DNA from: an uncultured Thermoanaerobaculia bacterium
GTDB lineage: Bacteria; Acidobacteriota; Thermoanaerobaculia; Multivoradales; JBCCEF01
NCBI GenBank assembly: GCA_964573125.1
Contig: CAZNIX010000144.1
Location: forward strand, 1-10,359
Reading direction: 5' to 3'
DNA length: 10,359 nt
Shown here: positions 2,044 through 9,986 of the stretch, piece after piece
Layout of the letters: each line of letters opens with the position of its first letter
Numbering within the stretch: the first letter of the stretch is position 1
Translations under genes and position numbers: made by a program
Notes under the pieces: model-generated
Told to the model about the DNA's origin: nothing
The model's input: the letters and a program-made list of their open reading frames with translations, nothing else
Database searches by the model: none

Positions 2044-2706
2044 CGCGGCGAGCCGCCGCGGCGCCGCGCGGATCTCGGGCACCTCGACGATGCGCACCCC
2101 CGCGGGCGGATGCTCGACCGCCTCGACCAGCGCAGCGACCATCGCGGCGAGCCGGACCAGGCCAAGCCGGCGGGCGCCGGCGCGGGTCGGGGGCAGCAGC
2201 TCGAGCAAGCCGTAGGCGGGGAGCAGGGCGTAGGCCCAGCGATGGCCGGGGCCGAGCACGTACCACGGCCGGAGGAAGGTGGTGGCGAGGCCGGTGGCGC
2301 GGATCGCCGCCTCGCCCTCCGCGCGCGCCGTGAGGTAGGCGCGCATCACCGGCGCCGGCTGCGCGACGCTGACGTAGACCACGTGGCGCACCCCGGCCGC
2401 GGCCGCCACGGCGGCCGACTCCCGCGCCGAGACCAGGTCGACCTCCCGGAACTGCCGCGCCTTCGAGGGGTTCGGCTTGGGCGTGCCGACGAGCTGGACG
2501 AGGGTGTCGGCCGGCGGTATGGCGGCCTCGAAGGTGCGGCGGTCGAGGGCGTCGCCGGGGACGACCTCGCAGCCGGGCGGGAGCTTCGCCTCCGCGCCCG
2601 GCCGGACCAGCGCGCGGACGGCGTGCCCCCGCGCGAGCAGCTCCGGGATCAGCCGCCGGCCGAGGTAGCCGGTGCCGCCGGTGACGAAGACGTGGCGGGG
2701 CGGCAC
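2005..2706 (-). CDS. NAD(P)H-binding atypical SDR / NmrA-like epimerase-dehydratase family protein, 233 aa.
   Basis: The N-terminus is MPPRHVFVTGGTGYLGRRLIPELLARGHAV, a Rossmann TGGTGxxG motif. Codon bias is good. Its start lies 6 nt downstream of the truncated-haemoglobin stop, consistent with an operon. Its 3' end overlaps the convergent plus-strand nucleotidyltransferase gene by 39 nt. Confidence 0.8.
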   Translation of the reverse strand: MPPRHVFVTGGTGYLGRRLIPELLARGHAVRALVRPGAEAKLPPGCEVVPGDALDRRTFEAAIPPADTLVQLVGTPKPNPSKARQFREVDLVSARESAAVAAAAGVRHVVYVSVAQPAPVMRAYLTARAEGEAAIRATGLATTFLRPWYVLGPGHRWAYALLPAYGLLELLPPTRAGARRLGLVRLAAMVAALVEAVEHPPAGVRIVEVPEIRAAPRRLAALPAAPQVIAERA

Positions 2707-2712
2707 GTCGGT

Positions 2713-3183
2713 TTACGGCGCCTCGACGATGTCCGCCTTGAGCGTCGACACCACCGCCAGCAGCTCGTCCTTCTCGGCTTGCGGCACCTTGAACTTGTCG
2801 AGCGTCGCCACCAGGTGGGCGACCGCGGCGTTCCACTGCGCCTCGGTGATGCCGAGCCCGGTGTGGGAGGTCTTCATGTCGCGGCCGGTGTAGACGCAGG
2901 GGCCGCCGGCGGCGGCGCAGAGCTGCTCGACGACGAGCTGGCGGATGTGTCCCTTCGAGTCGTTGGAGTGGCCGGCGAAGAAGCGCGCCAGCGACGGGTC
3001 GGCGAGCAGCCGGCCGATGAAGTCGTCGGTCACCGCGGCGATCGCGTCGTAGCCGCCGAGGCGCTGGTAGAGCGAGGGCTTCTCATGGTGGTCGGCACGG
3101 ACCGCCGCCGGCGCGGCGGCGAGGGCGAAGGCGACGACGGCGAGGGTCGCGAGAGCGAATCGGGACGTGCGGGCGCTGAGCAT
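2713..3183 (-). CDS. glbN: Group I truncated haemoglobin (2/2 Hb, trHbN-like) with an N-terminal signal peptide, so probably periplasmic or secreted.
   Basis: SLYQRLGGYDAIAAVTDDFIGRLLADPSLARFF ... GGPCVYTGRDMKTSHTGLGIT matches the trHbN pattern (LYERLGG...AI..VVDDFY.R...D..L..FF ... GGP..YTG..M...H.G.GIT), with the proximal His in KTSHTG. The N-terminus MLSARTSRFALATLAVVAFALAAAPAAVRA looks like a signal peptide. A strong SD (GGGGAGGAGG) sits 5-6 nt upstream of the ATG at 3183. Confidence 0.85.
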   Translation of the reverse strand: MLSARTSRFALATLAVVAFALAAAPAAVRADHHEKPSLYQRLGGYDAIAAVTDDFIGRLLADPSLARFFAGHSNDSKGHIRQLVVEQLCAAAGGPCVYTGRDMKTSHTGLGITEAQWNAAVAHLVATLDKFKVPQAEKDELLAVVSTLKADIVEAP

Positions 3184-3348
3184 GTGTCCTCCTCCCCGAA
3201 GGGGGTCGTTCCAACGCCAGTACGGCGCCGGCCCACCGGCGGATGAGTGTCAGTCCCACCGCGCTCCCCGGCCACGCCCCGTCGCCGCCCGACCGGTAGC
3301 CGAGACCTGCGCCGGATGGCGCGGGTCGAACGCACTTGGGCGGGGGCG

Positions 3349-6330
3349 CTACGGCGTGGTCGACGACCACGACGAAACGTCGCCGCTCTCGAAGCCGTCG
3401 GCGAAGATGAGCGCCTCGACGGTCGAGAACCGCCGCGCGACCCGGGTGACGTTGCCCTGGTGGTCGGCGACCTCGGCGGAGAGCGTGGCGGCGGTCAGCT
3501 CGGGGAGCGGCTGGGACAGCAGGATCGCGTAGACCCCGGGCGCCTGCTCGACCGCGAGGTCGGCCAGCTCGGCGCCGGGCGGGCGGCCCTCGACCGGCAA
3601 GTCGGCGGTCAGAGACAGCGTCGCGAGATCGACCCCCGAGTTGGCGTCGGCGACGCCGACCCGCAAGAGAAACACCGGATCGGGGTTGAAGCCCAGGCGC
3701 GGGACGCTCACGTGGAGCGTTGGCTTGAGGTCGTCGAGGAACCAGCCGAAGCCCGGGCTGCCGTCGGTCACGGCGGTGTCGATCGGGCAGCCGAGGTCGA
3801 TCCAGCGCGCGAACGTCATCTTCTCGTCGATCGAGAGCGGCGGCACGCCGCTCCCCGGCGGCGGCATGATCGTGCCGGTGTAGTCGAGGTCGGCCTCGTT
3901 GGGGTCGGCGCCGGGCGGCAGGGTGTTCGGGTCGCCGGGCACCGACTCGGTCGGGTGGTCGGCGTTGGTCCAGCCGTCGAAGCGCTGGCCGAAGACCTTC
4001 CAGGCGAGGAGGCTCCGCCGGCTCTGGAACCGCCGCACGTAGCGGCTGGCGTTGGTCTGCCGCCAGGTGCCGTTCCCGATCACCGGCGGGTGGCCCCACT
4101 GCGCCGGGTCGTCGTCGCAGAGGCGCTTGTAGTCGCCGGGGAGGCCGCCGTAGAGCGCGAGGTCGTCGAGCACGAGGTTGCCGCTCGGCGCCGCCGCGGC
4201 GTGGCACGCGCCGGTGCACGAGCGCTGGAGGAGCGGGCGGACGTCCTGGTAGAACTCGACGTCGACGACCGGCGCCGGCACCACCTCGAGATCGGGCTGG
4301 CCGCCGGCGTCGTAGGAGACGAGCGGCGTCACCGTCGAGAGGTCCCAGACCGGAAAGCCCGGCTGGCCGGCGGCGGTGTCCTCGAACGCGAGCGGCTGCT
4401 GGCTGTGGGCGTGGCAGCCGCCGCAGTTCGCGCGCACCTCGCCCGGCCGCACCTGGTGCCAGGTCTGCGCCATGTTGAGCACCATGCCGTTGCGGTCGAG
4501 GGTCTGGAACGTGAACGGGGTGTCGGCCGGCACCTTGACCAGGAAGCTGGTGTCGGGGTTGCCCTCGGGGTCGAGGACCGGCTGGCCCTGGCCGTCGAAC
4601 TTGCGCACCGGGATCTCGCCGAGGATGCGGTGGCGCTCGTTGGCGTGGTTTGAGAAGTGCTGCCCCTCGTTGGGGCCGTAGCTCCGGTGGGTGTTGGGCT
4701 CGAGCGCGACCAGGCGGATCGCCCAGATCGCGGAGTTCGCGTACTTCCCTGCGTCCGCGCCCTGGTAGTCCCAGTTGCTCGACTGGCCGTTCTCCGAGGT
4801 GTTGAAGGCGTCGAGGCCGTCGAAGGTGTCGGCCCACGGCGTCACCCAGCCGGGGAAGCTCTCGCGCTTGTAGAGGCTCGAGGTGCCGACCAGGCCGAAC
4901 GGCGTCCCCGCCGGCAGCTCGGGGTGGAGCGTGCCGTCCTCGGGGAGCCAGGGGATCGCCGCCGGCTCGGCGACGCCGTGCACGGCCGCGTAGGGCACGA
5001 CCGCCCGCGGCCACGCCTCGTTGTAGGCCGGGTCGTTCTTGAGCAGGACCAGATCGGTGGGCGACCAGACCGGATCGCCGCCCGGGACCAGGTAGAGGCC
5101 GCTGTCGTAGTAGGGGAGCGGCGTCGGCCGGTCGAGGTCGTTCGCGGGCCCCGGCGTCCACGCCGCGAGGAGGTCGCCGCCCGGCGCCGCCGACGGGTGG
5201 GTGAACTTGCCCACCCTCACGCCGCCGGCGCCGGCCGGCGCCGCCTCGTCGTCGCCGTGGGTCAGCGGCGAGATCGAGATCATCCCGCGCGGCGTGAACC
5301 CCATCTGGAACGGGTAGAAGAGGCCGTTGCCGATCGTGCGGTCGATCGCCGGGTTCTCGCTCGGGAACGCCGAGTGGAACGGCGGCTCGCCCGGCGGCGG
5401 CGCGGCCGGGAAGCGGTAGAGCGCGCCGAATCCGTTGTTGTTGAGGTTGTAGTAGTCCTCGACCACGAGGTCGCCGTCGCCCATCTGGGTCATGAAGTGG
5501 AACGCCGACGGCTGCTTGAACGCGCTGACGAGCGGCCCCCAGCTCCGGCCGTCCGGGTAGATCGTCCAGATCCCCCACAGGCGCCGGTCGCGCAGCCCCT
5601 GGCTCTCGTAGGAGGAGAACGCGATCCGCCCGTCCTGGAGGATCGTCGGGTGGAGCGCGCTCCCGATCGTCATCGGCGCGATCGGCGTGACGTTGGCGCC
5701 GTCCTCGTCCATCACGTAGAGCTGGAGCGTCGGCGCGGTGAAGCTCCGCGGCGGCGTGAAGCCGTTGCGGTTCGAGCTGAACGCGACCTTGCCGCCGGGG
5801 AGCGGGCAGGGGCCGAGGTTGAGGATGCCGTAGCCGAGGCGGTTGAAACCGGCCGGCGGATCGAGCGGGTTGGTCTCGTCCCAGATGCCGGCGCCGGTGT
5901 TGGGGGTGAACTCGCCGTGGGTGAGCTGCTCGACCTGGCGGCTCGCGAGGTGGATGCGGAAGACGTCGGCGCCCAAGAGCGGCAGCTCGTCGCGCTGCGG
6001 GTTGGTCTGGGTCAGGTCGTGGAAGAGCGCGTAGTAGACCCACTGGGCGTCGAACGACACGAACGGGTCGGTCACCGAGCAGACCGTGCAGTCGACGAGC
6101 AGCTCCTCGCTCCCGTCCGGGTGGAGCAGCACGAGATCCGCCCCCGGCTCGGCGCGCGCCGGGTGAAAGACCTCGGGCCAGGTCGTGTTGTCGAGGTCGC
6201 CGTAGCGCGGCTGGCGGACGTAGACGACGTCGTAGGGAACGGGCGGCTGGGCGGCGGCCGGGACGGCGAGAGCGAGGGCGGGGCCGGACGCGAGGGCGAG
6301 GCGCAGGACGCGCGAGAAAAACAGCTTCAT
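3349..6330 (-). CDS. Large secreted multidomain protein, 993 aa: an N-terminal PD40/TolB-like beta-propeller, a central CXXCH site, a Planctomycete-cytochrome-C (PSCyt1)-like segment carrying CX3CH, and a C-terminal ADGFESGD tail.
   Basis: The signal peptide is MKLFFSRVLRLALASGPALALAVPAAAQ. The SD GGAGGT lies 6 nt upstream of the ATG at 6330. PD40-like blades include GGKVAFSSNRNGF, DGRIAFSSYESQG and YPDGRSWGP. NCGGCHAHS (CGGCH at nt 4411-4425) is a canonical c-type haem-binding CXXCH. VEFYQDVRPLLQRSCTGACHAAAAPSGNLVLDDLALYGG ... MPPPGSGVPPLSIDEKMTFARWIDLGCPI (nt ~3781-4260) follows the PSCyt1 pattern (F..DV.PIL...C..CHG...L.LD ... MPP...L...E...L..WI..GA), but with CTGACH (CX3CH, nt 4201-4218) in place of CXXCH. 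The C-terminus ends ...ALIFADGFESGDVSSWSSTTP. Coding bias is strong throughout. Confidence 0.85.
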   Translation of the reverse strand: MKLFFSRVLRLALASGPALALAVPAAAQPPVPYDVVYVRQPRYGDLDNTTWPEVFHPARAEPGADLVLLHPDGSEELLVDCTVCSVTDPFVSFDAQWVYYALFHDLTQTNPQRDELPLLGADVFRIHLASRQVEQLTHGEFTPNTGAGIWDETNPLDPPAGFNRLGYGILNLGPCPLPGGKVAFSSNRNGFTPPRSFTAPTLQLYVMDEDGANVTPIAPMTIGSALHPTILQDGRIAFSSYESQGLRDRRLWGIWTIYPDGRSWGPLVSAFKQPSAFHFMTQMGDGDLVVEDYYNLNNNGFGALYRFPAAPPPGEPPFHSAFPSENPAIDRTIGNGLFYPFQMGFTPRGMISISPLTHGDDEAAPAGAGGVRVGKFTHPSAAPGGDLLAAWTPGPANDLDRPTPLPYYDSGLYLVPGGDPVWSPTDLVLLKNDPAYNEAWPRAVVPYAAVHGVAEPAAIPWLPEDGTLHPELPAGTPFGLVGTSSLYKRESFPGWVTPWADTFDGLDAFNTSENGQSSNWDYQGADAGKYANSAIWAIRLVALEPNTHRSYGPNEGQHFSNHANERHRILGEIPVRKFDGQGQPVLDPEGNPDTSFLVKVPADTPFTFQTLDRNGMVLNMAQTWHQVRPGEVRANCGGCHAHSQQPLAFEDTAAGQPGFPVWDLSTVTPLVSYDAGGQPDLEVVPAPVVDVEFYQDVRPLLQRSCTGACHAAAAPSGNLVLDDLALYGGLPGDYKRLCDDDPAQWGHPPVIGNGTWRQTNASRYVRRFQSRRSLLAWKVFGQRFDGWTNADHPTESVPGDPNTLPPGADPNEADLDYTGTIMPPPGSGVPPLSIDEKMTFARWIDLGCPIDTAVTDGSPGFGWFLDDLKPTLHVSVPRLGFNPDPVFLLRVGVADANSGVDLATLSLTADLPVEGRPPGAELADLAVEQAPGVYAILLSQPLPELTAATLSAEVADHQGNVTRVARRFSTVEALIFADGFESGDVSSWSSTTP

Positions 6331-6572
6331 GGCGGCACCTCCGTGCCAGCCCGGGACCCCGCCGGCGCGCGACCGGCCGCCCGGGCCACGAATCGAGTGT
6401 CCTCAGCCCGCCGAGGGTAGCACAGGGGCCCTGGGGCGTCCGCCTCGCCGAGCCGAGGTCGATCCCTCGAACGGCCGGAGCGGACCCCAGCCGAGGCACC
6501 GGCGGCGGTGTAACCATCGGCGTACATGCTACGCTGCGCCGTCGGTTCCACCCTGGCAAAGGAGGCTCAACG

Positions 6573-7910
6573 ATGCGAACCTTCGCCCTCGTCTCGTGCA
6601 CCCTGGTCACGCTGCTCGCCGCCGCGGCGCCGGTCTCGGCTGCCGGCACCCTCTACGGCGTGTTCTTCGACACTGCGGTCTCGGAAGAGACGCTCTTCGC
6701 GGTCGATCCCGCGACCGGCGCCCTGACCCCGCCCGGCGCGGGCATCGCCGACTGCTGCTTCATCGCCAGCGGGGTCTCCAGCCTCGATCCCGACGCCGGG
6801 GTCTTCTTCTTCATGGGCCGCCGGATGTCGGACGGTGCGGACGACTTCCGGATCTGGAGCCTCGACCTGGCGAGCGGAGCGGTGCTGGCCAACCCGCTGC
6901 TCCCGGCGGGCAACAACTACAACTTCCTGGAGTTCGATCCGTCGTCGGGGACGCTCTACGCGGTGGTGTTCGACACCGGGGCCGCCGAGGAGCGGCTGGT
7001 CGAGGTCGACCCCGCGACCGGCGCGCTGACCCCGATCGGCGCCGGCGTCGCCGACTGCTGCCTCATCCCGAGCGGCGTCTCCGCCCTCGACTCCGCGGGC
7101 GGCGTGTTCCACTTCGTCGGCCGCCGGATGTCGGACGGCGCGGACGACTTCCGGATCTGGAGCCTGGACCTGGCGACCGCGGCGGTGGGGGCCAACCCGC
7201 TGCTGCCGGCGGGCAACAACTGGAACTTCCTGGAGTTCGATCCGTCGTCGGGGACGCTCTACGCCGTGGTATTCGACACCGTGGCCGCCGAGGAGCGCCT
7301 GGTCGAGGTCGACCCCGCGACCGGGGCGCTGGGGACCGTCGGCGCCGGGATCGCCGACTGCTGCTTCATCTCGAGCGGCGTGTCGGCGCTCGACCCGGGC
7401 GACGCCGAGTTCCACTTCGTCGGCCGCCGGATGTCGGAGCCGGACGACTTCCGGATCTGGAGCCTCGGCCTCGCGACCGGCGCGGTGGCCGCCAACCCGC
7501 TGCTGCCGCCGGGCAACAACCACAACTTCCTCGAGTTCGACCCCGACGCCGGGCCGCCGGGGCCGATCGAGGTCGCGATCGACGTCAAGCCCGGGAGCTT
7601 CCCCAACAGCGTCAACCCGCGGAGCAACGGCGTGATCCCGGTCGCGATCCTGACCACCGAGAGCTTCGACGCGCTGACCGTCGATGCCGCGACCCTGCGC
7701 TTCTCGGGTCCGGCCGGCGCCCCGATCGCCCACGCGGCACCGCACCCGGAGGACGCCGACGGCGACGGCGACACGGACCTCGTCGTCCACTTCCGCACCC
7801 GCCAGACCGGGATCGCCTGCGGCGACACCGAAGCGACGCTGGTCGGCGCCACCCTCGGCGGCGACCCGATCGCGGGGAGCGACAGCATCCGGACCGTCGG
7901 CTGCTCGTAG
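6573..7910 (+). CDS. Secreted tandem-repeat protein, 445 aa: a signal peptide, three 101-aa repeats each with a vicinal Cys-Cys, and a C-terminal ~115-aa domain carrying an Asp-rich Ca-binding-like loop.
   Basis: The SD GGAGG lies 7 nt upstream of the ATG at 6573. The signal peptide is MRTFALVSCTLVTLLAAAAPVSAAG. The repeats are GTLY(G/A)VVFDT...VDPATGAL...GAG(I/V)ADCC(F/L)I.SGVS.LD....F.F.GRRMS...DDFRIWSL.LA.GAV.ANPLLP.GNN.NFLEFDP. The C-terminal domain is IDVKPGSFPNSVNPRSNGVIPVAILTTESFDALTVDAATLRF...PEDADGDGDTDLVVHF. I do not recognise the repeat family. Confidence 0.8.
   Translation: MRTFALVSCTLVTLLAAAAPVSAAGTLYGVFFDTAVSEETLFAVDPATGALTPPGAGIADCCFIASGVSSLDPDAGVFFFMGRRMSDGADDFRIWSLDLASGAVLANPLLPAGNNYNFLEFDPSSGTLYAVVFDTGAAEERLVEVDPATGALTPIGAGVADCCLIPSGVSALDSAGGVFHFVGRRMSDGADDFRIWSLDLATAAVGANPLLPAGNNWNFLEFDPSSGTLYAVVFDTVAAEERLVEVDPATGALGTVGAGIADCCFISSGVSALDPGDAEFHFVGRRMSEPDDFRIWSLGLATGAVAANPLLPPGNNHNFLEFDPDAGPPGPIEVAIDVKPGSFPNSVNPRSNGVIPVAILTTESFDALTVDAATLRFSGPAGAPIAHAAPHPEDADGDGDTDLVVHFRTRQTGIACGDTEATLVGATLGGDPIAGSDSIRTVGCS
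6645..7553 (+). repeat. Three in-frame tandem coding repeats of 303 nt (101 aa) at 6645, 6948 and 7251. Repeats 2 and 3 are about 85-90% identical at the nucleotide level, and repeat 3 carries a 3-nt deletion.
   Basis: Direct comparison finds GGGACGCTCTACGC(G/C)GTGGT(G/A)TTCGACACC recurring at 6948 and 7251. GCCGACTGCTGC recurs at ~6748, ~7051 and ~7354. GGCCGCCGGATGTCGGA...GACGACTTCCGGATCTGGAGCCT recurs in all three units. Confidence 0.85.
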
Positions 7911-8071
7911 ACAGGGAGCGCTCGCGGCGGCGCGCGGCAGCGACGGCACCGGGGACCTCCCGCCGCAGCTCGGCGATCACCACCATCCGCTGCTCGCGCT
8001 TCGCCGCGACCGCGGTCAACCCCGAGCGCCCGCTCTGCGGTAAGCTCTCGCCGCCCGAGCTTCGATCCGCC

Positions 8072-8791
8072 ATGACCCCACGCGCCGCCCGCATCCTTCG
8101 CCGGCTCGCCCTCGCGGTCGTGCTCCTCCTGGTCGCGGCCCTCGCGGCGTTCACCTACATGGTCGGCGGCCCGCGCAACCTGATCGGCATGCTGCGCTAC
8201 GACCAGCGGGAGGAAGGCAAGCTCCAGGTCGGCGATCCGGCGCCCGACGTCCTGCTCACCGCGCTCGACGGAGCGCCCGATGCTCCGCTGCTCGCCGACC
8301 GCGACGGCAAGGCGCTGGTGATCGTCTTCGGCAGCTTCACGTGACCGCCGTTCCGGCGCTCGGTCGAGCGCCTCGGAGAGATGGCCGAGCGCTACGCCGA
8401 CCGGGCCGTCTTCCGCACCGTCTACATCAAGGAGGCGCACCCGGAGGACGAGTGGCAGATGGACAGCAACGAGGAGGAGGACGTCTGCTACCGCCAGCCG
8501 CGGTCGCTCGCCGACCGGCTGGCGATCGCGCGCGACTTCACCGCCCGCTTCGACTACCCGATCCCGCTGCTCGTCGACGGCCTGGACAACGCGGCGATGC
8601 ACCTCTACTCGGGCTGGCCCGAGCGCTTCTACATCGTCGGCGCCGACGGCCTGATCGCCTACAAGGGTGAGCCGGGGCCGTTCGGGTTCGAGCCCGAGGA
8701 GGTCGAGGAGTGGCTCGAGGCGCATCCACACGCGGCGGCACACCCACCCGCGGCGGCCGGCGCCGCCTCGGGCGAGGAGCCCGCCTCGTAG
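8072..8791 (+). CDS. Iodothyronine-deiodinase-like thioredoxin-fold selenoprotein, 239 aa, with Sec at residue 91 encoded by an in-frame UGA at 8342-8344 and an N-terminal membrane anchor.
   Basis: The ORFs ending at 8344 and starting at 8381 share one reading frame. Reading through the TGA gives ...KALVIVFGSFT-U-PPFRRSVERLGEMAERYADRAVFRTVYIKEAHPEDEWQ ... YPIPLLVDGLDNAAMHLYSGWPERFYIVGADGLIAYKGEPGPFGF. The deiodinase family active site is FGS(A/C)TUP(P/S)F, followed by VYIEEAHPSDGW and then PERLYII..GKIVY.GG.GP. The N-terminus MTPRAARILRRLALAVVLLLVAALAAFTYMV is a transmembrane anchor or signal. A SECIS-like hairpin begins 6 nt after the UGA. The gene stops at TAG 8789-8791. Confidence 0.75.
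8351..8378 (+). promoter_or_regulatory. Putative bacterial SECIS element (an mRNA hairpin directing Sec insertion at the UGA at 8342).
   Basis: GGCGCUC (8355-8361) pairs perfectly with GAGCGCC (8366-8372), giving a 7-bp stem around the apical loop GGUC (8362-8365). The stem extends by UUCC (8351-8354) pairing with GGAG (8375-8378) across a 2-nt bulge (UC, 8373-8374). The apical loop contains G and U and starts 18 nt after the UGA. That falls inside the 16-37 nt window used by bacterial SECIS models. Confidence 0.6.
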
Positions 8792-8832
8792 CGGACCGGC
8801 CGCCGCGCGGGGCGACGCGGGGCAAGAAAAAG

Positions 8833-8862
8833 GCCGCCGCCCCCCGGTGGGGACGGCGGCCG
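8833..8862. terminator. GC-rich hairpin between the convergent selenoprotein and SPFH genes. It is probably an intrinsic terminator, best oriented for the minus-strand gene.
   Basis: GGCCGCCG-C-CCCC / GGU / GGGG-A-CGGCGGCC forms an inverted repeat at 8833-8862. It is flanked on the plus strand by AAGAAAAA (8824-8831), which becomes UUUUUCUU immediately after the hairpin on the minus-strand transcript, 16 nt downstream of the SPFH stop. No U-tract follows on the plus strand. Confidence 0.5.
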
Positions 8863-8876
8863 AAATCACCTCCGAT

Positions 8877-9986
8877 CTACAGCAGCTTGACCACCCGCTC
8901 GGCGAGGCCGCCCTCGCCGAGGACCACGGTCAGGTTCGCCTTGCCGGCGACCTGCTCGAGGACCTCCAGCTCGCGCAGGCGCATCAGAGTCGGGTTCGAC
9001 TCGAAGATGCGGGCGGTGTTCGCCTGCGAGCGGATGGCGGCGGTCTCCTCGCGGCGGGTGACCAGCGTGGCCTCCGCGGCCTTCTTCGCCTCGGTCACCC
9101 GGTTGAGGATCTCCTTCATCTCGCCCGGCAGGATGACGTCGCGGATGCCGAGCGCGCGCACCTCGACGCCGAACGCCTCGGTACGCGCGCGCAGCTTCGC
9201 GGTCAGCTCGCCGGCGACCGCGTCCTTGCCCGCGAGCAGGCCGTCCAGCTCGCGGCCGCCGACCACCTCGCGCAGCGCGAGCTGCGCCTGGCGGTAGAGC
9301 GCCTGGGTGGCGTCCTCGACCTCGGTCGCGGCGCGCACCGGGTCGGCGACGCGGTACGCGACCAGCGCGTTGAGCCGCAGGGTGACGCGGTCGGCGGTCA
9401 TGATCTCCTGCCCGGAGACGTCGAGCGCCTGCTCGCGCAGGTCGAACGCGACCACCTTGACGTCGCCCTCGCCGCGCCAGAACGCGTGCTGGCCGGGCGG
9501 CAGCGTCGCGACGTGGCGGCCGTCCTGGAACAGTAGGCCGACCGCGCCCGGCGCGACCGCCGCGGTCTGGAGGTGCACCGCGGCGCCCGGGGCGCGCAGG
9601 ACGACCTGCAGCTCCGGGTGCTCGAAGCGCACGCCGCGGGTGTCGATCACCTCGGCGCGCACCTCGTGGAACACCGTCCACACCGCGTGCAGGCCGGGGC
9701 CGAGGACCGCGCGCAGGCGGCCGTCGATCCAGACCAGCGCCCGCTCGTGGTCGCCGAGGTCGAGCACCCGGGCGCGCTCGCCGAGCGCCCCCGAACGCAC
9801 GATCACCTCGAGGTCGCGGTGCTCGAGCCAGGGCTCGCGCACCGGGACCTTCTCGACCCGGGTCTCGAGCAGCGGGTCGAGCACGGGGTGCCGGCCGGGG
9901 TCGAGCAGGCGCCGGAAGACGCCGGCCTCGAAGACCAGGCCCACCTCGTGCTCGCGCACGCGGGTCCAGCCGATCGGAAAACGCAT
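8877..9986 (-). CDS. SPFH/Band-7 (stomatin/slipin-like) domain protein, 369 aa, with three ~55-aa N-terminal internal repeats.
   Basis: The SD GGAAGGAGGTG lies upstream of the ATG at 9986. The ORF-track start at 10328 is an Arg-rich over-extension. The SPFH core is DVSGQEIMTADRVTLRLNALVAYRVADPVRAATEVEDATQALYRQAQLALREVVGGRELDGLL ... GVEVRALGIRDVILPGEMKEILNRVTEAKKAAEA. The N-terminal repeats are LVFEAGVFRRLLDPGRHPV, LVWIDGRLRAVLGPGLHAV and LLFQDGRHVATLPPGQHAF. The stop is TAA at 8877-8879. Confidence 0.8.
   Translation of the reverse strand: MRFPIGWTRVREHEVGLVFEAGVFRRLLDPGRHPVLDPLLETRVEKVPVREPWLEHRDLEVIVRSGALGERARVLDLGDHERALVWIDGRLRAVLGPGLHAVWTVFHEVRAEVIDTRGVRFEHPELQVVLRAPGAAVHLQTAAVAPGAVGLLFQDGRHVATLPPGQHAFWRGEGDVKVVAFDLREQALDVSGQEIMTADRVTLRLNALVAYRVADPVRAATEVEDATQALYRQAQLALREVVGGRELDGLLAGKDAVAGELTAKLRARTEAFGVEVRALGIRDVILPGEMKEILNRVTEAKKAAEATLVTRREETAAIRSQANTARIFESNPTLMRLRELEVLEQVAGKANLTVVLGEGGLAERVVKLL

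What the first reader, a model, noticed from the sequence alone, without database searches (positions are those of the whole stretch)
6573..7910. Secreted protein of three near-identical 101-aa tandem repeats, each with a vicinal Cys-Cys, immediately upstream and co-oriented with the selenoprotein
The repeat unit is GTLYxVVFDT..VDPATGAL..GAGxADCCxI.SGVS.LD...F.F.GRRMS..DDFRIWSL.LA.GAV.ANPLLP.GNN.NFLEFDP. It recurs three times with a 303-nt period and about 85-90% nucleotide identity. I cannot assign it to any known repeat family; it may correspond to two beta-propeller-like blades per unit. Each unit has an invariant DCC. Vicinal cysteines can form strained vicinal disulfides or bind metal. 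The gene lies 161 bp upstream of a thioredoxin-fold Sec oxidoreductase with no obvious terminator between them, which raises the possibility of a redox substrate/partner pair. The C-terminal domain has a DADGDGDTD calcium-binding-like loop. Such high nucleotide identity between repeats suggests recent duplication or concerted evolution.
Basis: partly seen in the sequence, partly recalled or inferred. Interest (0 to 1): 0.65.

Follow-up and report, generated by a model that had tools for sequence, protein, structure and literature searches.

The report
Secreted six-bladed propeller, three Cys-Cys repeats
The gene encodes a secreted six-bladed beta-propeller of the uncharacterised DUF6923 family, built from three similar two-blade units that each carry a Cys-Cys pair, and its position next to the selenoprotein gene looks like a local accident, not a conserved partnership.

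Summary
ORF 6573-7910 (+) encodes a 445-aa protein with a signal peptide and three tandem units of 101, 101 and 100 aa, each containing D-C-C, followed by a 119-aa C-terminal domain. "Near-identical" overstates the similarity: the units are 72-79% identical in protein and 77-85% in DNA.

The repeat is not unassignable. It scores above threshold for Pfam DUF6923. The AlphaFold2 model (pLDDT 88) is a six-bladed beta-propeller with two blades per unit, closest to the YWTD, Kelch, NHL and TolB propellers.

All full-length homologues have three units, so the triplication is old. The unusually high similarity between units in this lineage points to intragenic homogenisation. Three Cys-Cys pairs per propeller are conserved across the many homologues inspected. 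One sister clade has PP(L/N) in all three units instead.

The redox-partner idea is not supported. No deiodinase or thioredoxin-fold gene lies near seven homologue loci. No DUF6923 gene lies near five deiodinase loci. The closest relative keeps the same flanking genes but lacks the 1.7-kb segment that carries this gene.

Most likely this is an extracellular ligand-binding scaffold with structural Cys-Cys disulfides, though that function is inferred. The C-terminal beta-sandwich is a very widespread module with no Pfam or NCBIfam model.

The parts
6558..6565 (+). Shine-Dalgarno-like AAAGGAGG, 7 nt upstream of the ATG
   Evidence: Read directly from the sequence
6573..7910 (+). DUF6923-family gene, 445 aa plus TAG stop
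   Evidence: ORF list. Pfam PF21959 scores 34.5 bits against a cutoff of 27. GC3 is 0.97. 190 homologues found.
6573..6641 (+). Predicted Sec signal peptide (aa 1-23, MRTFALVSCTLVTLLAAAAPVSA, V-S-A cleavage motif)
   Evidence: Sequence features. Homologues have equivalent hydrophobic N-termini. AF2 pLDDT is below 50 for residues 1-21. No dedicated signal-peptide predictor was run.
6645..6947 (+). Repeat unit 1 (aa 25-125). It supplies strands B-D of blade 1, all of blade 2, and strand A of blade 3.
6948..7250 (+). Repeat unit 2 (aa 126-226)
7251..7550 (+). Repeat unit 3 (aa 227-326, one codon shorter). Its last strand (aa 315-323) completes blade 1, a Velcro-type closure.
6750..6758 (+). D60-C61-C62 (GAC TGC TGC)
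   Evidence: Conserved in homologues.
7053..7061 (+). D161-C162-C163
7356..7364 (+). D262-C263-C264
7551..7907 (+). Pro-rich linker plus C-terminal seven-strand beta-sandwich module (aa 327-445)
   Evidence: AF2 model of the domain alone has pLDDT 91. The module sits at the extreme C-terminus of more than 80 other proteins. Its profile finds 26,444 cluster representatives. No Pfam or NCBIfam model matches it.
7752..7778 (+). Acidic loop DADGDGDTD (aa 394-402), a putative Ca2+-binding site
   Evidence: D68, D72, G73 and D76 are invariant in the 34-sequence domain alignment. Only sub-threshold FG-GAP matches were found.
7818..7820 (+). Cys416, inferred disulfide partner of Cys444
   Evidence: Both are invariant in A1 and at least 90% conserved in A3. 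Both are absent together in P0118.
7902..7904 (+). Cys444, the penultimate residue
6344..8066 (.). Segment present here but absent from the syntenic locus of the closest relative (L036/L037), where 119 unrelated nt take its place
   Evidence: blastn of the window against L036 and L037. Junction alignment.
7911..8071 (+). 161-nt spacer to the deiodinase-like gene. No terminator-like site, and its fold is no more stable than shuffled sequence.

Best explanation
**What it is.** The gene encodes a Sec-exported protein with two modules.

- Module 1 (aa 25-326) is a six-bladed beta-propeller of the DUF6923 family. It is made of three two-blade units with pseudo-threefold symmetry. The last strand of unit 3 closes blade 1.
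- Module 2 (aa ~332-445) is a disulfide-stapled beta-sandwich with a conserved acidic DxDGDGxxD loop. Thousands of other secreted proteins carry the same module at their extreme C-terminus.

**The Cys-Cys pairs.** Each unit places one Cys-Cys pair in the long loop that runs from the outer strand of one blade to the inner strand of the next. By standard propeller topology these loops lie on the top face.

**Most likely mechanism (inferred).** In the oxidising periplasm or exterior, each Cys-Cys pair closes into a vicinal disulfide. This stiffens three equivalent top-face loops. The propeller then works as an extracellular ligand-binding, lectin- or adhesin-like scaffold, and the C-terminal module provides Ca2+-dependent attachment or handling.

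**Evolution of the repeat.** The three-unit layout is ancestral. The high similarity between units in this lineage comes from intragenic homogenisation (gene conversion), followed by purifying selection.

**Link to the selenoprotein gene.** The adjacency results from a lineage-specific 1.7-kb insertion or deletion, not from a functional pairing.

For: **Export.** The N-terminus is hydrophobic with a VSA cleavage motif, and homologues have the same feature.

**Cys-Cys pairs.** Almost every complete Cys-Cys-bearing propeller homologue has exactly three pairs at a 101-104 aa spacing, including classes with other C-terminal domains such as DUF11, HYR and NHL. The exceptions are two with an extra pair in the N-terminal leader; three shorter sequences show only two pairs. 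In the roughly 40%-identical sister clade, DCC is replaced by PP(L/N) in all three units. This fits a loop-stiffening role.

**Homogenisation.** Units are 72-79% identical within this protein and 80-85% in P0002. In all other homologues they are 47-72% identical. The units of this protein are only 46-65% identical to any unit of P0003, P0004, P0008 or P0013. Between units, dN/dS is 0.31-0.43 and dS is 0.32-0.60.

**C-terminal module.** pLDDT is 91. It is C-terminal in more than 80 proteins with Kelch, FG-GAP, LamG, NHL, PKD or S8 peptidase N-terminal domains. It occurs in many phyla.

**No functional link to the deiodinase gene.**
Against: - No ligand, binding residue or biochemical result exists. 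The literature search found nothing on DUF6923 or DUF4394.
- I could not obtain model coordinates. The position of the Cys-Cys pairs on the top face, and the choice between vicinal and inter-unit disulfide pairing, rest on topology only.
- The invariant N-x-N-F motifs at the start of the inner strands, and the Asp before each Cys-Cys, could equally form a metal or catalytic site. Six-bladed lactonases and phytases use such sites.
- Weak sub-threshold matches to the lactonase family (Pfam E 0.008) and to the gluconolactonase PpgL (E 0.045) point that way.
- Cys-Cys presence is all-or-none across the clades, but this rests on a single evolutionary transition.
Confidence: 0.5

Rival explanations
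1. Enzyme, or metal- or cofactor-binding propeller. The three D-C-C loops and the N-x-N-F motifs around the central channel would form an active or metal site. The Cys-Cys pairs would be redox-active, as the vicinal disulfide next to PQQ is in methanol dehydrogenase, or would bind a thiophilic metal, as the C-terminal Cys-Cys of mercuric reductase does.
For: - G-I-x-x-C-C and N-x-N-F are among the invariant columns of the propeller alignment.
- Asp precedes Cys-Cys in all three units here and in most of the 515-aa class.
- There are sub-threshold lactonase and gluconolactonase matches.
- The vicinal disulfide in PQQ and XoxF dehydrogenases is documented in PMC13573614 and PMC13384848.
Against: - No enzyme family passes its threshold.
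- The best structural neighbours are binding scaffolds.
- A sister clade with the same architecture replaces DCC with PP(L/N). Losing catalytic residues that way would be odd unless the function changed.
- The residue before Cys-Cys varies (G, A, S, N or D) among close homologues.
- Genomic contexts give no pathway hint.
Confidence: 0.2
2. One reading: the repeat protein is the substrate or redox partner of the downstream Sec-containing deiodinase-like oxidoreductase, and the two genes are co-transcribed as a functional pair.
For: - The genes are co-oriented, 161 nt apart, with no terminator-like site between them.
- The region upstream of the deiodinase gene is not homologous to that of the closest relative. 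In this genome the deiodinase gene may therefore depend on read-through or on a new promoter.
- The deiodinase-like protein has an N-terminal hydrophobic segment. If that segment is a membrane anchor, its catalytic domain could face the same compartment; topology was not predicted.
Against: - None of 7 distinct DUF6923 homologue loci has a deiodinase or thioredoxin-fold gene within about 8 kb.
- None of 5 distinct deiodinase loci has a DUF6923 gene.
- L036/L037 keep the NAD-binding, globin, HZS-like, deiodinase and SPFH genes in the same order at 84-90% nt identity, but without this gene.
- The DUF6923 gene has its own strong ribosome-binding site.
- Cys-Cys propellers occur with many other domain partners, none of them redox domains.
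Confidence: 0.04
3. The three-repeat structure is an assembly artefact: a collapse or expansion of a repeat array in a metagenome-assembled contig.
For: - The window is a whole 10,359-nt metagenomic contig.
- A related contig, L035, carries a scrambled and deleted version of this gene. Assemblies of this region can therefore go wrong.
Against: - The units differ at 15-23% of nucleotides, and the longest shared exact run is 30 nt. Assemblers should resolve them.
- All 24 full-length homologues from independent assemblies have three units.
- Six blades form a closed propeller with high model confidence.
- The reading frame is intact and GC3 is 0.97.
Confidence: 0.02

Closest known systems
Pfam PF21959 (DUF6923) family proteins, with the related DUF4394 (PF14339)
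   Same: The protein scores above the DUF6923 gathering threshold. Homologues are annotated "DUF6923 family protein" in Thermoanaerobaculia genomes assembled from metagenomes. They share the three-unit, two-blades-per-unit propeller.
   Different: Nothing is known about the family's function, and no paper mentions it. The Cys-Cys triad and the particular C-terminal module are features of subclades, not of the Pfam definition. DUF4394 itself is below threshold, 20.5 bits against 29.6.
Six-bladed YWTD (LDL-receptor class B) propellers such as nidogen and LRP4/6, and the Kelch, NHL and TolB propellers
   Different: Sequence identity is only 9-15%, and no Pfam match to any of these families was found. 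None has a two-blade super-repeat with Cys-Cys pairs.
Six-bladed fucose lectins built from two-blade units (RSL and BambL trimers; AAL as a single chain)
   Different: There is no sequence similarity. The lectins' sugar-binding residues and inter-blade sites were not identified here. RSL assembles from three chains, whereas this protein is one chain.
Vicinal disulfide of PQQ- or lanthanide-dependent methanol dehydrogenases
   Same: It is a beta-propeller with an adjacent Cys-Cys at the functional face (PMC13573614 and PMC13384848).
   Different: Those enzymes have eight blades, a single Cys-Cys, and a PQQ and metal site. No PQQ-family Pfam match was found here.
Folded C-terminal sorting or anchoring domains, such as the type IX secretion C-terminal domain and Ca2+-binding Ig-like adhesin modules
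   Same: The module here is about 115 aa, a beta-sandwich, and sits at the extreme C-terminus of many otherwise unrelated secreted proteins.
   Different: It matches no sorting-domain model. It also occurs in Chloroflexota, Bacillota and a methanogen, and sometimes in tandem internal copies. It is therefore not tied to one secretion system.

Membership tests
Pfam DUF6923 (PF21959) | Whole-protein HMM score at or above the gathering threshold of 27 bits | tested here: met
   34.5 bits, E 2.5e-08. Homologues carry the same precomputed Pfam hit.
Pfam DUF4394 (PF14339) | HMM score at or above 29.6 bits | tested here: not met
   20.5 bits
Six-bladed beta-propeller fold | Six four-stranded antiparallel blades around a central axis, closed by strand exchange between the termini | tested here: met
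YWTD, Kelch, NHL or TolB sequence families | A match to the family HMM | tested here: not met
   None appears in the Pfam scan at E up to 0.01.
Lactonase / SGL / gluconolactonase propeller enzymes | HMM score above threshold, plus central metal-binding residues | tested here: not met
   Lactonase PF10282 scores 15.8 bits against 21.7. PpgL scores E 0.045. Metal ligands could not be assessed without coordinates.
PQQ-dependent dehydrogenase (propeller with a vicinal disulfide) | Eight blades, PQQ-repeat HMM match, single active-site Cys-Cys | tested here: not met
   Six blades, no PQQ Pfam hit, and three Cys-Cys pairs.
Vicinal disulfide | Adjacent cysteines in an exported protein | tested here: met
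   Cys-Cys occurs three times, and a signal peptide is present.
Vicinal disulfide | An S-S bond actually formed between residues i and i+1 | not testable with these tools
Functional gene pair or operon with the deiodinase-like selenoprotein | Adjacency conserved across related genomes | tested here: not met
   0 of 7 DUF6923 loci and 0 of 5 deiodinase loci show the pairing. The syntenic relative lacks the gene.
Functional gene pair or operon with the deiodinase-like selenoprotein | Co-transcription across 7911-8071 | not testable with these tools
   No terminator-like site was found, but no expression data are available.
DxDxDG-type Ca2+-binding loop (EF-hand or FG-GAP-like) | A conserved acidic D-x-D-G-D-G-x-x-D loop | tested here: met
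   DADGDGDTD at aa 394-402. D, D, G and D are invariant in 34 of 34 domains.
DxDxDG-type Ca2+-binding loop (EF-hand or FG-GAP-like) | Membership of the FG-GAP Pfam family, or demonstrated Ca2+ binding | tested here: not met
   FG-GAP_3 scores 14.9 bits against 26.9, and FG-GAP 12.2 against 22.1. Ca2+ binding itself cannot be tested here.

The most novel reading that the evidence does not exclude
The three conserved (D)CC loops may not be simple staples. Together they could form a threefold redox-active or thiophilic-metal-binding site on the top face of a six-bladed propeller. Alternatively they could form a ring of inter-unit disulfides that clasps the propeller. Either would define a new functional class of secreted Cys-Cys propellers. 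The C-terminal beta-sandwich would then be an undescribed, very widespread C-terminal anchoring or sorting domain.
Probability: 0.15. Interest if true: 0.55.

Novelty: new member of a known kind. Interest (0 to 1): 0.3.

Why it matters
As it stands this is an ordinary member of a catalogued but uncharacterised family, and the suggested link to selenium redox chemistry does not hold. Three points may still be useful.

1. A conserved triad of Cys-Cys pairs, placed symmetrically on a propeller, is a simple testable handle on the function of DUF6923 proteins. The sister clade with Pro-Pro in the same place is a natural control.
2. The gene is a clean example of intragenic homogenisation inside a closed-fold repeat protein.
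3. The C-terminal module is found in about 26,000 protein clusters and has no Pfam or NCBIfam model. It deserves a family definition and a test of whether it anchors or sorts secreted proteins.

Tried and rejected
- **Genome-collection scan with the full-length alignment.** The patterns were drawn only from the C-terminal module. The 18 loci returned share that module but not the propeller, so they were useless for propeller synteny. They did show that the module occurs in many phyla.
- **Metagenome scan with the propeller-only alignment.** It returned only 8 loci, mostly short. None had a deiodinase gene.
- **First deiodinase tblastn.** It used a wrong frame, because the ATG is at 8072, not 8071. 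It was repeated correctly.
- **Sequence search of solved structures.** Nothing significant; the best hit was a gluconolactonase at E 0.045.
- **Literature search for DUF6923 and DUF4394.** No papers.
- **Rfam and tRNA scans of the window.** Nothing above threshold.
- **Fold of the 161-nt spacer.** No more stable than shuffled sequence (z = 0.53).
- **Promoter scan.** Uninformative in DNA of about 73% GC; 0 sites were found and 0 expected.
- **Pfam on genes upstream of homologues.** No informative domains, so there is no conserved operon partner.
- **Lipoprotein reading of L-V-S-C at aa 6-9.** Rejected. The preceding hydrophobic stretch is too short and the Cys is not conserved in homologues.
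- **SoxY-like sulfur-carrier reading of the C-terminal ...VGC-x.** Rejected. The Foldseek matches are only generic Ig-like hits (E at least 0.013, TM 0.4). Cys416 and Cys444 are conserved and lost together, as expected of a disulfide.
- **Mobile-element reading of the 1.7-kb indel.** No flanking direct or inverted repeats of note, and the composition is native.
- **Contig look-up for the window's own protein.** No record; cluster look-up gave no names. Taxonomy is therefore inferred only from homologues labelled Thermoanaerobaculia.
Full report

Yes. ORF 6573-7910 on the + strand encodes 445 aa. An AAAGGAGG ribosome-binding site ends 7 nt before the ATG (sequence). Third-position GC is 0.97, the same as the neighbouring genes. 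The + frame is therefore the real one, and the long antisense ORF at 6567-7949 is not.

Tandem Repeats Finder reports a 303-nt period over 6697-7540, with 2.8 copies, 86% matches and a score of 1221. In protein terms the units are aa 25-125, 126-226 and 227-326. Pairwise protein identity is 78%, 72% and 79%. Nucleotide identity is 83.5%, 77.0% and 84.7%.

The repeat is real and far beyond chance. "Near-identical" and "85-90%" overstate it. Each unit contains D-C-C, at aa 60-62, 161-163 and 262-264. The DADGDGDTD loop at aa 394-402, the 161-nt spacer at 7911-8071, and the absence of a terminator-like site in that spacer are all confirmed.

**2. What the repeat is**

It scores above the gathering threshold of Pfam PF21959 (DUF6923, "repeat of unknown function"), with 34.5 bits against a cutoff of 27. 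It also gives sub-threshold matches to DUF4394 and to the 7-bladed lactonase family.

A database search found 190 relatives. The full-length ones are 54-89% identical, about 445 aa long, and come from metagenomes and from genomes assembled from metagenomes. Those that carry a name are labelled Thermoanaerobaculia, and one is named "DUF6923 family protein".

The strand pattern shows that the final strand of unit 3 (aa 315-323) supplies the inner strand of blade 1. This is a standard Velcro-type closure (topology inferred).

Sequence search of solved structures found nothing significant. No paper in the library mentions DUF6923 or DUF4394.

**3. Secretion**

The N-terminus, MRTFALVSCTLVTLLAAAAPVSA|AG, has the charge, hydrophobic core and small-x-small cleavage motif of a Sec signal peptide. 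Homologues have equivalent N-termini, and the model is disordered over residues 1-21. No dedicated predictor was available, so this is inference from sequence. The L-V-S-C at aa 6-9 is not a credible lipobox. The preceding hydrophobic stretch is too short, and the Cys is not conserved.

**4. The Cys-Cys pairs**

All 24 full-length close homologues have a Cys-Cys pair in all three units. The preceding residue varies among D, G, A, S and N.

Among the complete Cys-Cys-bearing propellers listed, almost all have exactly three pairs, 101-104 aa apart. Two have an extra pair in the N-terminal leader, and three shorter sequences show only two. This holds in classes that carry different C-terminal extensions: the 515-aa Cys-rich class, and proteins with DUF11, HYR or NHL domains. 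G-I-x-x-C-C is among the invariant columns of the propeller alignment, along with N-x-N-F.

A sister clade at about 40% identity has the same C-terminal module and three units, but no propeller cysteines at all. In that clade D-C-C is replaced by P-P-(L/N) in every unit. A swap between Cys-Cys and Pro-Pro, two ways of stiffening a turn, argues for a conformational role of the pair.

By sequence position, each Cys-Cys lies in the 15-residue connection between the outer strand of blades 1, 3 and 5 and the inner strand of blades 2, 4 and 6. By standard propeller topology these connections cross the top face, which is the usual ligand face.

I could not access coordinates. Three things therefore remain untested: whether each pair forms a vicinal disulfide, whether pairs bond between units, and how exposed they are. 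The mature protein has eight cysteines. Cys416 and Cys444 are invariant in the family and at least 90% conserved in the module alignment. Both are missing together in the archaeal member P0118. They most likely form one disulfide, which leaves the six Cys-Cys cysteines to pair among themselves.

**5. Recent duplication or concerted evolution?**

Every homologue has three units, so the triplication is old. Within-protein identity between units is 47-72% in 31 homologues. It is 72-79% in this protein and 80-85% in its 89%-identical relative P0002.

The units of this protein resemble each other more than they resemble any unit of P0003, P0004, P0008 or P0013 (46-65%). Against P0002, positional correspondence is kept: 85-92% on the diagonal against 74-84% off it. 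Between the Cys-Cys clade and the Pro-Pro clade there is no positional signal at all (32-39%), although units within each protein are 48-66% alike.

This is the signature of intragenic homogenisation (gene conversion). In this lineage it happened before the split from P0002. It also offers a way for DCC or PP(L/N) to have spread to all three units.

Between units, dS is 0.32-0.60 and dN/dS is 0.31-0.43. The last homogenisation is therefore not very recent, and the units have since been under purifying selection. The longest exact run shared by two units is 30 nt. Together with the constant three-unit count in independent assemblies, this makes an assembly artefact unlikely.

**6. The partner hypothesis**

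The downstream gene runs from 8072 to 8791; the ATG is at 8072. It is a deiodinase-family thioredoxin-fold protein (Pfam T4_deiodinase, E 2e-32). It has an in-frame TGA at 8342-8344, exactly where full-length homologues have Cys: FGSFT-U-PPF here against FTCPPF in the homologues. A conserved hairpin lies 11 nt downstream of the TGA and shows one compensatory pair change. The selenoprotein call is sound.

Three lines of evidence show that the pairing with the propeller gene is not conserved.

- Seven distinct loci encode full-length homologues, on contigs of up to 741 kb. None has a deiodinase or other thioredoxin-fold gene within about 8 kb, by annotation or by tblastn. Eight further metagenome loci are also negative.
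- Five distinct loci encode close deiodinase homologues (79-90% identity over the matched part). None contains a DUF6923 gene.
- The closest relative is decisive. L036 and L037 align to the window at 84-90% nucleotide identity over 2059-6343 (NAD-binding, globin and HZS-alpha-like genes) and at 86% over 8067-9624 (deiodinase and SPFH genes). Window 6344-8066, which holds the propeller gene and both its flanks, is replaced there by 119 unrelated nucleotides.

The propeller gene is therefore a lineage-specific insertion, or a deletion in the sister lineage, in a divergent intergenic region. No repeats typical of a mobile element flank it, and its composition is native.

The homologues' own neighbourhoods differ from one another. 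Amidase and PNPOx genes recur in one subclade. Others have a toxin-antitoxin pair and tyrosinase, a peptidase M16, or a FAD-binding dehydrogenase. The recurrent small upstream ORFs have no recognisable domains.

Read-through transcription into the deiodinase gene in this particular genome cannot be excluded, since no terminator-like site is present. If it happens, it is an accident of the indel.

**7. The C-terminal domain**

Residues 327-445 were modelled alone, with pLDDT 91. They form a seven-strand beta-sandwich. Foldseek finds only generic Ig-like matches (best E 0.013, TM 0.35-0.49). No Pfam or NCBIfam model matches the domain. There are only sub-threshold FG-GAP hits on the acidic loop.

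The D-x-D-G-D-G-x-x-D loop is invariant at four positions across 34 diverse copies. A Ca2+ site is plausible but untested.

The module sits within a few residues of the C-terminus in more than 80 of the proteins retrieved. Their N-terminal parts include Kelch, FG-GAP, LamG, NHL, PKD and subtilase domains. It occurs in Gemmatimonadota, Chloroflexota, Planctomycetota, Verrucomicrobiota, Omnitrophota, Bacillota and a methanogen.

A profile search of 1.84 billion cluster representatives finds 26,444 proteins at E up to 1e-3 and 16,481 at E up to 1e-10. Most hits are C-terminal, and a few proteins have up to 11 tandem copies. It behaves like a shared attachment or handling module of secreted proteins. 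Its spread across very different cell envelopes argues against a link to one secretion system.

**8. Most likely function**

- Shown: membership of the DUF6923 family, the three-unit organisation, conservation of the Cys-Cys triad, homogenisation of the units, the modular C-terminus, and the absence of conserved linkage to the selenoprotein.
- Predicted from the model, not measured: the six-bladed fold.
- Inferred: the protein is exported, and each Cys-Cys pair forms a vicinal disulfide that stiffens three equivalent top-face loops. The propeller then acts as an extracellular binding scaffold, lectin- or adhesin-like, and the C-terminal module mediates Ca2+-dependent attachment.

The points in favour of a binding role are these:

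- The nearest structural neighbours are binding scaffolds.
- Related propellers are combined with adhesin-type domains.
- The threefold equivalence of the units is maintained.
- No enzyme family matches.

I put this reading at about 0.5. An enzymatic or metal-site reading, which draws on the invariant N-x-N-F and D-C-C motifs, gets about 0.2. The selenoprotein-partner reading gets about 0.04.

**9. Novelty and score**

This is a new member of a catalogued but unstudied family. The exciting part of the interpretation, a redox pair with a selenoprotein, is not supported. The residual interest lies in two places. One is the conserved threefold Cys-Cys motif, which comes with a natural Pro-Pro control clade. 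The other is the very widespread C-terminal module that has no family model. Interest: 0.3.

Noticed in passing
window 7551-7907 (aa 327-445): The C-terminal beta-sandwich module has an invariant DxDGDGxxD loop and a conserved Cys pair. It has no Pfam or NCBIfam model. Its profile matches 26,444 cluster representatives (16,481 at E up to 1e-10). The match is almost always at the extreme C-terminus of secreted proteins with unrelated N-terminal domains, across many bacterial phyla and a methanogen. It is a candidate for an undescribed anchoring or sorting domain.
   Followed up: partly
window 8072-8791; TGA at 8342-8344; hairpin at 8355-8372: This is a deiodinase-family selenoprotein gene. The in-frame TGA aligns with the Cys of FTCPPF in full-length homologues. 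A conserved 7-bp hairpin with a GGUC loop lies 11 nt downstream and shows one compensatory U-A to C-G change among six related loci, as a SECIS element would. Gene callers split the gene into pieces of about 90 aa and about 136 aa in the five related loci inspected, and most database homologues are 131-150-aa fragments.
   Followed up: partly
window 2713-3183 (-) and 8072-8791 (+); L040 3089-4450; L041: In relatives L040 and L041 a bacterial-type globin gene sits directly and divergently next to the deiodinase-like selenoprotein gene. L038 keeps a globin fragment there. In the window and in L036, the HZS-alpha-like gene lies between the two, and in the window the DUF6923 gene does as well. Together with the SPFH/Band-7 gene downstream in the window, L036, L037 and L041, the globin looks like the conserved neighbourhood of the selenoprotein, and a more plausible functional association than the propeller.
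   Followed up: partly
window 3349-6330 (-): A 993-aa secreted protein matches the middle domain of hydrazine synthase subunit alpha (Pfam HZS_alpha, E 2.6e-14). It is far below the NCBIfam hydrazine synthase threshold (34.6 bits against 800), so it is not hydrazine synthase. In L036 and L037 the orthologue is called as two ORFs of 346 and 644 aa.
   Followed up: no
L035 6400-6963 (metagenome contig Ga0302046_10011806): A close relative's contig (92-96% nt identity) carries only fragments of the DUF6923 gene, corresponding to window 6715-6798, 7530-7766 and 7855-7910. These are joined directly to an internal SPFH fragment (window 9236-9443), and the deiodinase gene is missing. This is either a decayed, multiply deleted copy of a window-like arrangement or a chimeric short-read assembly.
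   Followed up: partly
window 8832-8861 (- strand): This is the only strong intrinsic-terminator-like hairpin in the region: 13 pairs, 12 of them G-C, followed by a T-run. It serves the minus-strand SPFH gene and lies between the convergent deiodinase and SPFH genes. No comparable structure follows the DUF6923 gene.
   Followed up: no
P0079, P0104 and P0115 (homologues sharing the C-terminal module): Several other cysteine-free propellers fused to the same C-terminal module are also built from three repeats of about 100 aa. The three-unit, two-blades-per-unit layout therefore recurs among these secreted propellers, beyond the Cys-Cys clade.
   Followed up: no
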